DNA from: Escherichia coli
GTDB taxonomy: Bacteria > Pseudomonadota > Gammaproteobacteria > Enterobacterales > Enterobacteriaceae
Assembly (NCBI RefSeq): GCF_003334815.1
Contig: NZ_QOWO01000010.1
Length of the DNA stretch: 64,000 nt
Strand: one strand, 5' to 3'
Part shown: positions 14,970 to 36,243 of the stretch, in pieces
Layout: each line of letters starts with the position of its first letter
How positions within the stretch are numbered: position 1 is the stretch's first letter
The notes under the pieces: model-generated
The model's input: the letters and a program-made list of their open reading frames with translations, nothing else
The model's database searches: none
What the model was told of the DNA's origin: nothing
Made by a program: the position numbers and the translations under genes

Positions 14970-16226
14970 ATGTTCCGCCGTCTGCTTATCGCAACAGTCG
15001 TCGGTATTCTCGCGGCCTCTGCCGTTGCCGGGTTTCGTCATGCGATGCTGCTACTGGAGTGGTTGTTCCTCAATAATGACTCCGGCAGTCTGGTCAATGC
15101 AGCGACAAACCTTTCCCCCTGGCGACGGTTGCTAACTCCGGCGCTCGGCGGACTGGCGGCGGGTTTGTTGCTGATGGGCTGGCAGAAATTTACCCAACAA
15201 CGCCCTCATGCGCCGACCGATTATATGGAAGCGTTGCAAACCGATGGACAGTTCGATTACGCAGCAAGCCTGGTTAAATCGCTTGCCTCTCTGCTGGTAG
15301 TAACCAGCGGCAGTGCAATTGGTCGCGAAGGTGCGATGATTCTTTTAGCTGCCCTTGCCGCCTCCTGTTTTGCCCAACGTTTTACGCCACGCCAGGAGTG
15401 GAAATTATGGATCGCCTGTGGGGCCGCGGCGGGAATGGCTGCGGCCTATCGTGCCCCGCTTGCTGGCAGTTTATTTATAGCCGAAGTGCTGTTTGGCACT
15501 ATGATGTTGGCCTCTCTCGGCCCGGTGATTATTTCCGCCGTCGTGGCATTGCTGGTTAGCAATCTGATTAATCATAGCGACGCGTTACTCTACAACGTAC
15601 AACTCTCAGTGACGGTTCAGGCTCGTGACTATGCGCTGATTATCAGTACAGGTGTGCTGGCAGGTCTGTGCGGACCACTGTTGTTAACGTTAATGAACGC
15701 CTGTCATCGTGGATTTGTGAGTCTCAAACTTGCGCCGCCCTGGCAACTGGCACTAGGCGGGTTGATCGTGGGTCTGCTTTCCCTGTTCACACCTGCAGTG
15801 TGGGGCAACGGCTATAGCACCGTACAATCCTTTTTAACCGCCCCACCACTGTTAATGATCATTGCCGGGATCTTCCTTTGTAAACTGTGTGCCGTGCTGG
15901 CGAGTAGCGGTTCCGGCGCACCCGGTGGGGTCTTTACACCGACGCTATTTATCGGTCTTGCCATTGGCATGTTGTATGGTCGTAGCCTGGGATTATGGTT
16001 CCCTGATGGCGAAGAAATTACACTTTTACTCGGATTGACCGGGATGGCGACACTGTTGGCGGCGACCACGCACGCGCCGATTATGTCGACGTTGATGATA
16101 TGTGAAATGACCGGGGAGTATCAGCTACTCCCCGGTTTATTGATTGCCTGCGTAATTGCGTCGGTAATTTCGCGGACGTTACACCGTGACTCTATCTACC
16201 GCCAGCACACTGCGCAGCATAGCTAA
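14970..16226 (+). CDS. clcB: ClC-family voltage-gated chloride channel / H+-Cl- antiporter
   Basis: ORF 14910..16226 trimmed to the ATG at 14970 ([11 protein letters not shown], 418 aa). ClC signature GREGAM and a polytopic profile. Confidence 0.85.
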
Positions 16227-30630: not shown

Positions 30631-31353
30631 ATGGGTAAAACCCAGCCCTTGCCAATATTAATTACTGGCGGAGGTCGTCGCATCGGCCTCGCCCTCGCAT
30701 GGCATTTCATTAATCAAAAGCAACCGGTGATTGTCAGCTATCGGACACACTATCCAGCCATTGATGGACTGATTAATGCAGGTGCGCAGTGTATTCAGGC
30801 TGATTTTTCGACCAACGACGGTGTGATGGCGTTTGCCGATGAAGTACTAAAAAGCACCCATGGTCTGCGTGCTATTTTGCATAACGCCAGTGCGTGGATG
30901 GCGGAAAAACCGGGTGCGCCACTGGCCGACGTACTGGCTTGCATGATGCAGATCCACGTTAATACCCCATACCTGCTCAACCATGCGCTGGAAAGATTAC
31001 TGCGTGGGCACGGACACGCCGCCAGCGATATCATTCACTTTACCGATTATGTGGTGGAGCGCGGTAGCGACAAACATATTGCGTATGCTGCAAGCAAAGC
31101 GGCACTGGATAATATGACCCGCTCGTTTGCCCGCAAGCTGGCACCGGAAGTGAAAGTGAATTCTATTGCGCCATCGCTGATCCTGTTTAATGAACATGAT
31201 GATGCCGAATATCGACAACAGGCGCTGAATAAATCACTGATGAAAACCGCGCCTGGCGAGAAAGAAGTGATCGACCTGGTCGATTACTTACTTACCAGTT
31301 GCTTTGTCACCGGACGCAGTTTCCCACTTGATGGCGGTCGTCATCTGCGTTAA
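30631..31353 (+). CDS. folM: Dihydromonapterin reductase (short-chain dehydrogenase/reductase)
   Basis: 240-aa SDR with N-terminal GGGRRIG and catalytic YAASK motifs. Confidence 0.9.
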   Translation: MGKTQPLPILITGGGRRIGLALAWHFINQKQPVIVSYRTHYPAIDGLINAGAQCIQADFSTNDGVMAFADEVLKSTHGLRAILHNASAWMAEKPGAPLADVLACMMQIHVNTPYLLNHALERLLRGHGHAASDIIHFTDYVVERGSDKHIAYAASKAALDNMTRSFARKLAPEVKVNSIAPSLILFNEHDDAEYRQQALNKSLMKTAPGEKEVIDLVDYLLTSCFVTGRSFPLDGGRHLR

Positions 31354-31685
31354 TGCAGCTTTATCCAGCATATAATCAACACCCATGCGCTTATCCCCCA
31401 ACACGCAACAGAACCAACAAAAGCGGCGGGCAAGCGCATCATTCCGGTGAAATACCACAGCGACACCAGGTAAACAAAATAGGGAATAATCGACCACATA
31501 CTAAAAATGATGGTTGCGCGTAAGGCTTCAATGCCGCGTTCGCTGGCAACAATATAATGCGCGATAAGCGCAAAGGTCGGGAAAAGTGGAATCAGCCCGG
31601 CGATATAATAATTTTTCGTTTTTGCTAAAACACCAATCAACAGCACTACCAGCGCACCGAGCGCGGCTTTGATTACCAGCCCCAT
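31350..31685 (-). CDS. ydgC: GlpM-family small inner-membrane protein
   Basis: 111-aa four-TM protein. Its stop codon overlaps the folM stop codon convergently (shared TTAA). Confidence 0.8.
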   Translation of the reverse strand: MGLVIKAALGALVVLLIGVLAKTKNYYIAGLIPLFPTFALIAHYIVASERGIEALRATIIFSMWSIIPYFVYLVSLWYFTGMMRLPAAFVGSVACWGISAWVLIICWIKLH

Positions 31686-31813
31686 CTTTTTACCTTAACA
31701 CTTCCATAACAAGTCATCAGTAGAATACCTGATGAAAACTTGTTTAGAAACGATTGATAGTAAGTAAAAACAGCGCGGTGTATTGTGACGTTTTTATATC
31801 TACCGTGAATGTT

Positions 31814-33880: not shown

Positions 33881-36243
<2,363 letters not shown>

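What the first reader, a model, noticed from the sequence alone, without database searches (positions are those of the whole stretch)
31350..31353. Convergent folM and ydgC share overlapping stop codons
The folM stop (TAA, 31351-31353) and the ydgC stop on the opposite strand (31350-31352) overlap within the tetranucleotide TTAA. There is no intergenic terminator, so the 3' UTRs are necessarily antisense to the partner gene's coding sequence.
Basis: seen in the sequence. Interest (0 to 1): 0.15.

Follow-up and report, generated by a model that had tools for sequence, protein, structure and literature searches.

The report
folM/ydgC shared-stop tail-to-tail overlap
Two neighbouring E. coli genes on opposite strands really do end on the same four bases (TTAA), so each mRNA runs on as antisense to the other gene, but this is a common, already documented kind of gene junction and not a new mechanism.

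Summary
Confirmed and ordinary. The folM stop (TAA, 31351-31353, + strand) and the ydgC stop (31350-31352, - strand) share TTAA at 31350-31353. RefSeq annotates the same ends. Both proteins match their family models to the last position.

The junction is present in 5418 of 5426 complete E. coli genomes. In 67 of 80 related species loci (68 of 81 sequences with the window) both stops sit at the same place, as TTAA, TTAG or CTAG.

Published data support it:
- The pair is in the MG1655 "excludome".
- A bicyclomycin-sensitive (Rho) termination region lies on the ydgC strand inside folM, about 585 nt past the ydgC stop.
- No discrete Term-seq 3' end is listed for the locus.
- RNase III-type 21-22-nt duplexes map in folM up to 447 nt past the ydgC stop, and in ydgC up to 318 nt past the folM stop.

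The 4-nt stop/stop overlap (TTAA/TTAG/CTAA/CTAG) is the known modal class of convergent overlaps. tus/fumC, 3.5 kb downstream, has the same TTAA.

Most likely this is a frozen junction held by purifying selection on both C-termini, with Rho-limited overlapping 3' tails. A regulatory role is possible but untested. Low interest; already known.

The parts
30631..31353 (+). folM coding sequence (dihydromonapterin reductase, 240 aa), stop TAA at 31351-31353
   Evidence: ORF. RefSeq annotation. NCBIfam NF005066 equivalog, 415 bits, full-length match to the last profile position.
31350..31685 (-). ydgC coding sequence (GlpM-family small inner-membrane protein, 111 aa), stop is the reverse complement of 31350-31352
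   Evidence: ORF. RefSeq annotation. Pfam GlpM PF06942 matches residues 5-111 to model positions 1-107 of 107. Listed as a predicted dual-topology 3-TM protein in PMC3962082.
31350..31353 (.). Shared tetranucleotide TTAA that holds both stop codons (4-nt tail-to-tail overlap)
   Evidence: The same position in 68 of 81 sequences (the window plus 67 of 80 Enterobacteriaceae loci) reads TTAA (19), TTAG (25) or CTAG (24).
31354..31433 (+). C-rich, G-poor tract in the untranslated folM 3' tail, antisense to the ydgC C-terminus; a candidate Rho loading (rut-like) region
   Evidence: C=27 and G=13 in the first 80 nt after the folM stop. This is in the top 1.5% of 80-nt windows of the 64-kb window, and C exceeds G in 66 of 68 species. 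Rho use on this strand is inferred, not shown.
30765..30765 (-). Published Rho termination region on the ydgC strand, antisense to folM (MG1655 1681110). Resolution is coarse because it rests on 800-nt windows
   Evidence: Adams et al. 2021, Supplementary file 2: reads upstream/downstream 74/17 without bicyclomycin and 79/66 with it, Rho score 3.64, p 2.4e-5. The coordinate offset of 1650345 was verified.
31307..31330 (.). p19-captured 22-nt RNase III-type duplex in folM; shows - strand RNA 22-43 nt past the ydgC stop
   Evidence: PMC7373196 Table S3, mapped to the window.
30903..30925 (.). p19-captured 21-nt duplex in folM; shows - strand RNA 427-447 nt past the ydgC stop
   Evidence: PMC7373196 Table S3, mapped.
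31583..31605 (.). p19-captured 21-nt duplex in ydgC; shows + strand RNA 232-252 nt past the folM stop
   Evidence: PMC7373196 Table S3, mapped.
31649..31671 (.). p19-captured 21-nt duplex in ydgC; shows + strand RNA 298-318 nt past the folM stop, almost reaching the ydgC start codon at 31685
   Evidence: PMC7373196 Table S3 (794 reads on the + strand, 115 on the - strand), mapped.
31255..31289 (-). Candidate weak hairpin (31265-31289) plus U-rich tract (31255-31264) on the ydgC strand, inside folM codons for E-K-E-V-I-D-L-V-D-Y
   Evidence: Flagged by the terminator scan. MFE -11.2 kcal/mol, z -1.98. Hairpin potential is present in most species, but pairing is 79% against 78% in shuffles and covariation is weak. 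No Term-seq 3' end is listed there. Status: inconclusive.

Best explanation
This is an ancient, ordinary 4-nt tail-to-tail overlap of two real genes. It probably arose when the spacer between folM and ydgC was lost. It is now frozen because the only single-base changes that keep both proteins at their normal length are those within YTAR (TTAA, TTAG, CTAG, CTAA). Because there is no spacer and no hairpin at the junction, RNA polymerase leaving either gene keeps transcribing, untranslated, through the partner gene. On the ydgC strand the tail runs several hundred nt into folM and is stopped by Rho; this step is shown by published bicyclomycin data. On the folM strand the tail begins with a C-rich, G-poor stretch and covers at least 318 of the 336 nt of ydgC. 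Its existence is supported by captured duplexes; its end point and any use of Rho are inferred. The complementary tails and mRNAs pair, and RNase III cuts them at a low level (shown by published p19 capture). Any mutual dampening of the two weakly expressed genes is most likely a side effect and not a selected switch (inferred).
For: Anatomy. Both ORFs end where their family models end. The 80-nt junction segment is covered at 80% or more, and at 95% identity or more, in 5418 of 5426 complete E. coli genomes. Both stops are at the same place in 68 of 81 sequences (the window plus 67 of 80 species loci, more than 20 genera), while stop identity drifts among TTAA, TTAG and CTAG. Losing the folM stop would add 39 residues. 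Losing the ydgC stop would add Arg-Arg to a predicted dual-topology protein. The junction has no terminator hairpin and the window has no Rfam hit. The Rho region antisense to folM has Rho score 3.64 and p 2.4e-5. No discrete Term-seq 3' end is listed between MG1655 1680900 and 1682099. The tract after the folM stop is C-rich. The pair is in the MG1655 excludome, meaning it was found in at least 50% of 58 RNA-seq sets. RNase III-type duplexes lie in both genes. In wild-type total RNA, sense/antisense RPM are 19.6/3.1 for folM and 4.4/3.4 for ydgC, so about a third of each gene's per-kb signal continues over the partner. The 4-nt class and its neutral stop-codon-mutation origin are described in PMC2174442.
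Against: Deep conservation of the exact overlap could also reflect selection for obligatory transcript overlap. The Rho call rests on low read counts and 800-nt windows. The + strand RNA inside ydgC could come from an unmapped antisense promoter and not from folM read-through, although the promoter scan found no + strand site inside ydgC. Low-level dsRNA is pervasive in that dataset: 87% of genes give at least 1 RPM. No Rho region was reported on the folM strand.
Confidence: 0.8

Rival explanations
1. Selected excludon. The zero-spacer overlap is kept because obligatory antisense 3' tails make folM and ydgC expression mutually exclusive, through transcriptional interference and RNase III cleavage.
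For: The pair is listed among 165 convergent excludons of MG1655. The overlap is kept at the same position in 68 of 81 sequences, the window plus 67 of 80 species loci. dsRNA duplexes lie in both genes, and p19 dsRNA signal on ydgC is relatively high at 336-870 RPM in four Illumina repeats. Antisense reads over ydgC are nearly as abundant as sense reads.
Against: The conservation is fully explained by coding constraint on two C-termini with no spacer. Four Kluyvera loci carry a 7-nt insertion, apparently a duplication, that separates the stops by 3 nt. Eight loci (Atlantibacter, Siccibacter, two Enterobacter) have lost ydgC altogether. Both genes are weakly expressed, and rnc mutants show no obvious rise in either mRNA (folM 19.6 to 12.7 and 11.4 RPM; ydgC 4.4 to 3.9 and 6.2 RPM). 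No functional link between FolM and YdgC is known, and no anticorrelated expression has been shown for this pair.
Confidence: 0.12
2. Embedded intrinsic terminator. ydgC transcription is ended mainly by the hairpin plus U-rich tract at 31255-31289, hidden in folM codons, so the antisense tail is only about 95 nt long.
For: The terminator scan flagged the site. The fold is -11.2 kcal/mol with z -1.98. Most of the 68 species can form a similar or stronger hairpin followed by CUCUUUYUC, down to -21 kcal/mol. Pair 14-34 switches between G-C (22 species) and A-U (16 species).
Against: Overall pairing is 79% against 78% in column shuffles, and sliding the partner by 3 columns gives a similar covariation score. 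The stem follows from palindromic ATC-GAT codons of an (I/V)D-x-(I/V)D motif. No Term-seq 3' end is listed there in three conditions. A - strand duplex 427-447 nt past the stop and a Rho region about 585 nt past it show that transcripts get beyond the hairpin. The U-tract is poor in E. coli (CUUUCUC).
Confidence: 0.1
3. Non-contiguous operon. The ydgI-folM transcript reads antisense through all of ydgC and continues into rstAB, so ydgC is embedded in a longer unit on the opposite strand.
For: + strand RNA is present up to 318 nt past the folM stop, 14 nt short of the ydgC start. No + strand terminator or Rho region is reported in that stretch. In eight loci that lack ydgC, folM lies 55-114 nt upstream of rstA on the same strand.
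Against: ExcludonFinder reports only three non-contiguous operons in MG1655 and this locus is not one of them. rstA sense signal is about 25 times that of folM (496 against 19.6 RPM), so rstA has its own promoter. The C-rich tract after the folM stop favours Rho termination. An Escherichia-specific hairpin at 31708-31744 could stop part of the read-through.
Confidence: 0.07
4. Annotation artefact. One of the two genes really ends at another stop, so there is no overlap.
For: None found. ydgC is small and poorly studied.
Against: Both ORFs are uninterrupted up to these stops. Both match their family models to the last model position. Both stops are conserved in position across more than 20 genera while the flanking codons vary.
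Confidence: 0.01

Closest known systems
4-nt tail-to-tail stop/stop overlaps (tetramers TTAA, TTAG, CTAA, CTAG), described by Lillo and Krakauer 2007 (PMC2174442)
   Same: Two convergent genes with both stop codons inside one YTAR tetramer. This is the modal overlap length. The proposed neutral origin is stop-codon mutation or loss of the spacer. The raised use of TAG seen here (folM 49 of 68, ydgC 24 of 68) matches their report of raised TAG use in convergent overlaps.
   Different: Nothing essential differs. The only addition here is that this junction keeps both stops in place across more than 20 enterobacterial genera.
Convergent excludons (E. coli MG1655 excludome, ExcludonFinder, PMC12288877)
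   Same: Neighbouring convergent genes with overlapping 3' transcripts and RNase III-cleaved dsRNA. folM-ydgC is itself in the published list, and duplexes lie in both genes.
   Different: Mutually exclusive expression, the functional hallmark of an excludon, has not been shown for this pair. The spacer here is -4 nt, against a mean of 95 nt for E. coli excludons.
The tus/fumC junction in the same window (34840-34843)
   Same: The same TTAA stop/stop overlap. It is also in the excludome. It also has a Rho termination region on the - strand antisense to the + strand gene, at MG1655 1684895 with Rho score 5.6, and p19 duplexes in tus.
   Different: The genes are different, and the dsRNA signal in tus is stronger (140-683 RPM).
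Rho-dependent termination of untranslated or antisense RNA (Adams et al. 2021, PMC7815308, which cites Peters et al. 2012 for Rho termination of antisense RNAs)
   Same: Untranslated RNA downstream of a stop codon, bicyclomycin-sensitive read-through on the ydgC strand, and a C-rich, G-poor tract on the folM strand. In that study 51.5% of Rho regions are antisense to genes.
   Different: Rho action on the folM strand is only inferred. On the ydgC strand the C/G ratio is near 1.
Bidirectional intrinsic terminators between convergent genes (Ju et al. 2019, recalled from memory; the paper is not held in the library)
   Same: A convergent gene pair that needs termination in both directions.
   Different: There is no stable hairpin with flanking A and U tracts at or near the junction, so this pair does not use that solution.

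Membership tests
4-nt convergent stop/stop overlap (YTAR class) | Two protein-coding genes on opposite strands, tail to tail | tested here: met
   ORFs and RefSeq annotation. Family matches for both proteins.
4-nt convergent stop/stop overlap (YTAR class) | Both stop codons lie within one tetranucleotide from TTAA, TTAG, CTAA or CTAG | tested here: met
   TTAA at 31350-31353. Relatives carry TTAA, TTAG or CTAG at the same position.
Convergent excludon | Transcripts of the two convergent genes overlap | tested here: met
   This follows from the zero-length spacer. The pair is listed in the MG1655 excludome. Duplexes and antisense reads are found in both genes. All of this is published data, not a new experiment.
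Convergent excludon | The overlap produces dsRNA that RNase III processes | tested here: met
   Four perfectly paired 21-22-nt duplexes with 2-nt overhangs, from PMC7373196 Table S3. Their abundance is low.
Convergent excludon | Expression of one gene lowers expression of the other (mutual exclusion) | not testable with these tools
   No expression perturbation data were found for this pair. rnc mutants show no clear rise of either mRNA.
Rho-dependent terminator (ydgC strand, inside folM) | Read-through increases when Rho is inhibited by bicyclomycin | tested here: met
   Adams et al. Supplementary file 2: 74/17 against 79/66 reads, Rho score 3.64, p 2.4e-5. Counts are low and resolution is coarse.
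Rho-dependent terminator (folM strand, inside ydgC) | A C-rich, G-poor untranslated stretch plus bicyclomycin-sensitive read-through | tested here: inconclusive
   The C-rich tract is present: C27/G13, top 1.5% of windows, and conserved in 66 of 68 species. No Rho region is listed on this strand.
Intrinsic (hairpin plus U-tract) terminator at the junction | A stable G+C-rich hairpin followed by a U run, at or next to the stops | tested here: not met
   The scan finds nothing at the junction. Fold z-scores are -0.54 and -0.02. Neither candidate helix shows convincing covariation.
Intrinsic terminator embedded in folM (31255-31289, - strand) | A hairpin plus U-tract with a mapped RNA 3' end | tested here: inconclusive
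   Hairpin potential is widespread, but it is not distinguishable from the effect of codon composition. No Term-seq end is listed.
Dihydromonapterin reductase FolM (NCBIfam NF005066 equivalog) | Score above the curated cut-off over the full length | tested here: met
   415 bits against a cut-off of 249; residues 3-240 match profile positions 2-239 of 239.
GlpM family (Pfam PF06942) | Full-length match to the family model | tested here: met
   E 1.3e-50; residues 5-111 match model positions 1-107 of 107.
Non-contiguous operon | One RNA that spans the genes on both sides of an oppositely oriented gene | not testable with these tools
   + strand RNA reaches at least 318 nt into ydgC, but continuity into rstA is unknown. 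The locus is not in the published list of three.

The most novel reading that the evidence does not exclude
The exact stop-on-stop junction, kept across more than 20 enterobacterial genera, is maintained by selection for obligatory transcript overlap. In one version this is a true excludon that makes the tetrahydromonapterin enzyme FolM and the membrane protein YdgC mutually exclusive. In the other, ydgC is embedded antisense in a ydgI-folM-rstAB non-contiguous operon, so that folM transcription both silences ydgC and feeds into the RstAB two-component system.
Probability: 0.1. Interest if true: 0.35.

Novelty: already known. Interest (0 to 1): 0.1.

Why it matters
It matters little by itself. 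The overlap is in the standard annotation, the class was described in 2007, and the transcript overlap, the Rho region and the dsRNA are all in published genome-wide tables. The pair could serve as a clean natural test case. It has no spacer and no hairpin, both genes are weakly expressed, and there are natural variants with a 3-nt gap or without ydgC. That makes it useful for asking whether overlapping 3' tails at such junctions have any regulatory effect or are merely tolerated noise cleaned up by Rho and RNase III.

Tried and rejected
1. A junction hairpin as a hidden bidirectional terminator. Helix A (CTGCG/TGCAG) did no better than shuffles: 152 of 500 shuffles paired as well. Helix B (CCGCT/AGCGG) was 70% paired, but its two-sided changes trace mainly to one clade split. 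The ungapped RNAalifold consensus was essentially empty. Fold z-scores were near zero. Rejected.

2. The strong palindromic hairpin in the ydgC-rstA spacer (31708-31744, z -3.6 and -5.0) as a conserved terminator for the folM tail. It is confined to Escherichia and is already degraded in some Escherichia species. Rejected as a conserved feature.

3. The embedded hairpin at 31255-31289. Left as inconclusive.

4. An Rfam scan of the whole window at gathering thresholds gave no hits.

5. Supplements of ExcludonFinder and of Dar and Sorek 2018 are not held. Peters et al. 2012 and Ju et al. 2019 were not found under the ids I tried. Their 3'-end and Rho tables could therefore not be checked.

6. 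The 2026 SamT paper mentions ydgC only as a passenger gene on a plasmid. Stop codons in ydgC, or its deletion, had no effect on omrB activation. It says nothing about the overlap.

7. I did not count 4-nt convergent overlaps genome-wide myself. I relied on PMC2174442 and on the seven convergent junctions in the 50-kb MG1655 stretch: -4, -4, -48, +2, +24, +38 and +225 nt.

Full report
**Observation.** The window reads ...gtcatctgcg ttaatgcagc... at 31340-31359. The + strand ORF 30631..31353 (240 aa) stops with TAA at 31351-31353. The - strand ORF 31350..31685 (111 aa) stops with the reverse complement of 31350-31352.

**Identity of the genes.** The region is the E. coli chromosome. A 1.5-kb query matches 5424 of 5426 complete E. 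coli genomes. RefSeq annotates folM (dihydromonapterin reductase) and ydgC (GlpM family protein) with these same ends, both in strain SH19PTE6 and in MG1655, where folM is 1680976..1681698 and ydgC is 1681695..1682030.

**Are these the true gene ends?** Yes.
- FolM matches the NCBIfam equivalog NF005066 at 415 bits (cut-off 249), from residue 3 to residue 240, against profile positions 2-239 of 239.
- YdgC matches Pfam GlpM (PF06942, E 1.3e-50) from residue 5 to residue 111, against model positions 1-107 of 107.
- Both proteins end exactly where their families end.
- If the folM stop were lost the protein would gain 39 residues. If the ydgC stop were lost it would gain Arg-Arg and then meet TGA.
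- YdgC is listed as a predicted dual-topology, 3-TM protein with a K+R bias of +1 (PMC3962082). Two extra arginines at its C-terminus would plausibly matter. This last point is my inference.

**Conservation.**
- Within E. coli, an 80-nt segment centred on the junction is covered at 80% or more, and at 95% identity or more, in 5418 of 5426 genomes.
- A scan of one genome per species with FolM returned 80 loci from more than 20 enterobacterial genera.
- I located folM and ydgC in each locus by tblastn and walked to the stops. Of 81 sequences (the window plus the 80 loci), 68 have the same 4-nt overlap at the same position. That is 67 of the 80 related loci.
- The tetranucleotide is TTAG in 25, CTAG in 24 and TTAA in 19. 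The positions of both stops are fixed while their identity drifts among the single-step neighbours that keep both stops. CTAA was not seen.
- TGA cannot take part in a 4-nt overlap. This explains the very high use of TAG here: folM 49 of 68 and ydgC 24 of 68.

**Exceptions, which are informative.**
- Four Kluyvera loci carry a 7-nt insertion, apparently a duplication (GTTTAGCGTTTAG), that separates the stops by 3 nt without changing either protein.
- Intestinirhabdus has TCAGTGA, a 7-nt overlap in which folM is one residue longer.
- Eight loci (Atlantibacter, Siccibacter, two Enterobacter) lack ydgC. In these, folM is followed by rstA after 55-114 nt on the same strand.
- The overlap is therefore old and stable, but it is not indispensable.

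**Is it more than chance?** As a class, no. Lillo and Krakauer (PMC2174442) describe exactly these tetramers (CTAA, TTAA, CTAG, TTAG) as the cause of the peak at length 4 among convergent overlaps. They count 58 convergent overlaps in E. coli. Across 58 genomes they count 1890 convergent overlaps, of which 1218 are 5 nt or longer. They find the phase distribution consistent with neutral stop-codon mutation.

In the 50-kb MG1655 stretch that covers this window there are seven convergent junctions. Two overlap by 4 nt (folM/ydgC and tus/fumC), one overlaps by 48 nt (clcB/bidA), and the rest have gaps of 2, 24, 38 and 225 nt. tus/fumC in the window is also TTAA, at 34840-34843.

**Termination signals.**
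- *At the junction.* The consensus scan finds no terminator-like site there. The short inverted repeat around TTAA (CTGCG-TTAA-TGCAG) folds no better than shuffled sequence (z -0.54 on the + strand, -0.02 on the - strand). It shows no covariation over 68 species: 152 of 500 shuffles paired as well. An alternative helix seen in Enterobacter-like species (CCGCT...AGCGG) is 70% paired, but its two-sided changes trace mainly to one clade split. Rfam gives no hit anywhere in the window. The statement "no intergenic terminator" is correct, and no terminator hairpin is built from the two gene ends either.
- *Embedded hairpin on the ydgC strand.* A hairpin plus U-rich tract lies inside folM at 31255-31289. 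Most species can form it, some strongly. However, the stem follows from palindromic ATC-GAT codons of an (I/V)D-x-(I/V)D motif, and the U-tract from Glu-Lys-Glu codons. Pairing is 79% against 78% in shuffles, and sliding the partner by one codon gives a similar covariation score. I leave it as inconclusive.
- *C-rich tract on the folM strand.* The first 80 nt after the stop have C=27 and G=13. This is in the top 1.5% of 80-nt windows in the 64 kb, and C exceeds G in 66 of 68 species. The tract is rut-like, but it could simply mirror the codons of the last YdgC transmembrane helix.
- *Spacer hairpin.* A strong palindromic hairpin in the ydgC-rstA spacer (31708-31744, z -3.6 and -5.0) is restricted to Escherichia.

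**Published transcript evidence.**
1. ExcludonFinder (PMC12288877) lists folM-ydgC, and also tus-fumC, among 165 convergent excludons. These are pairs found in at least 50% of 58 MG1655 RNA-seq sets.
2. Adams et al. 2021 (PMC7815308, Supplementary file 2) list a Rho termination region at MG1655 1681110, minus strand, antisense to folM. Reads upstream/downstream are 74/17 without bicyclomycin and 79/66 with it. The Rho score is 3.64 and p is 2.4e-5. This maps to window 30765, about 585 nt past the ydgC stop, using the offset verified. Resolution is coarse.
3. The curated Term-seq tables of Adams et al. hold no 3' end between 1680900 and 1682099 on either strand. This fits diffuse termination not driven by a hairpin, or low expression.
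4. Huang et al. 2020 (PMC7373196, Table S3) list perfectly paired 21-22-nt duplexes of RNase III type, captured by p19. I mapped them to the window.
   - In folM: 31307-31330 and 30903-30925. These show - strand RNA 22-43 nt and 427-447 nt past the ydgC stop.
   - In ydgC: 31583-31605 and 31649-31671. These show + strand RNA 232-318 nt past the folM stop, almost to the ydgC start at 31685.
5. The total RNA table of Huang et al. gives wild-type sense/antisense RPM of 19.6/3.1 for folM and 4.4/3.4 for ydgC. Per kilobase, about a third of each gene's signal continues across the partner.

A caveat applies to the dsRNA data. The authors state that 87% of genes give at least 1 RPM of dsRNA, so low-level dsRNA is not special to this pair.

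**Mechanism.**
- *Shown:* two real genes share TTAA; there is no hairpin terminator at the junction; RNA from each strand exists well inside the partner gene; dsRNA is cut by RNase III; and there is Rho-dependent loss of signal on the ydgC strand within folM.
- *Inferred:* the + strand RNA inside ydgC is the folM 3' tail (no + strand promoter-like site was found there); it is eventually stopped by Rho or in the ydgC-rstA spacer; and the overlap persists because both C-termini are under purifying selection and there is no spacer left to absorb change.

**Rivals** (confidence, with the reasons given in the report sections):
- a selected excludon: 0.12
- the embedded intrinsic terminator as the main ydgC terminator: 0.10
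- a ydgI-folM-rstAB non-contiguous operon with ydgC embedded antisense: 0.07
- misannotation: 0.01

**Comparison with what is known, and novelty.** The junction is a full member of the YTAR 4-nt convergent overlap class. It is already listed as a convergent excludon, although the functional hallmark of an excludon, mutual exclusion, is untested for this pair. It does not use a bidirectional intrinsic terminator. Everything in the finding is already in the public annotation or in published genome-wide tables. My only addition is the cross-genus conservation of the exact junction and its natural variants. Novelty: already known. Interest: low.

**What led nowhere.**
- The junction hairpins and the spacer hairpin.
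- The Rfam scan.
- Supplements of two papers, which are not held.
- Two papers not found under the ids I tried.
- The 2026 SamT paper, in which ydgC is only a passenger gene with no phenotype.

Noticed in passing
window 34840-34843: tus (+, ends at 34843) and fumC (-, low end at 34840) share the same TTAA stop/stop overlap. The pair is also in the published excludome. It has a Rho termination region antisense to tus (MG1655 1684895, roughly window 34550) and abundant p19 duplexes in tus.
   Followed up: partly
window 16179-16226: clcB (+) and bidA (-) overlap tail to tail by 48 nt. This is a much longer convergent overlap than the one under study, and the pair is also in the excludome list.
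   Followed up: no
window 31708-31744: A strong palindromic hairpin (AACAAGTCATCAG...CTGATGAAAACTTGTT; z -3.6 on the + strand, -5.0 on the - strand) lies in the ydgC-rstA spacer, 22 nt upstream of the ydgC start. It is present only in Escherichia and is already degraded in some Escherichia species. Its function is unknown; it could be an operator, a 5' UTR structure, or a partial stop for the folM tail.
   Followed up: partly
window 31741-31757: The motif TGTTTA-GAAAC-GATTGA (TGTTTAGAAAAGATTAAT in other genera) is the best conserved part of the ydgC-rstA spacer across genera. It resembles a PhoP box, and rstA is known to be PhoP-activated; both of these points are from memory and were not tested here.
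   Followed up: no
window 1-2398: The window is 99.97% identical to MG1655 from 2399 onward, which corresponds to the right boundary of the cryptic prophage Qin. Its first 2398 nt are ydfI-ydfJ. The strain therefore lacks Qin at this site and carries ydfJ uninterrupted by it.
   Followed up: partly
L035:3211-3260; also L029, L061, L066, L067, L071, L072, L076: ydgC is absent in Atlantibacter, Siccibacter and two Enterobacter genomes. folM is then followed by rstA after 55-114 nt on the same strand. L035 still carries CTAGTGAAA, which looks like the remnant of the ydgC stop, His and Phe codons and points to a deletion.
   Followed up: partly
L073:3190-3218, L074, L078, L081 (Kluyvera); L025:3208-3238 (Intestinirhabdus): These are natural variants of the junction. 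A 7-nt insertion, apparently a duplication (GTTTAGCGTTTAG), gives a 3-nt gap between the stops. A T-to-C change gives TCAGTGA, a 7-nt overlap with FolM one residue longer.
   Followed up: yes
H1 (NZ_CP172108.1, strain QL57EC), H12 (NZ_CP128919.1) and H27 (NZ_CP032073.1, strain CT29): A few E. coli strains have a disrupted locus. H1 has an IS1 insertion that splits ydgC. In H12 the match stops inside folM. H27 has a break about 7 nt after the junction.
   Followed up: no
A1 alignment, columns 41-44 (68 species): Among the four tetramers that allow a 4-nt overlap, CTAA never occurs. About 7 of 68 would be expected if the two stop choices were independent. Shared ancestry probably explains this, but it was not tested on a tree.
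   Followed up: no
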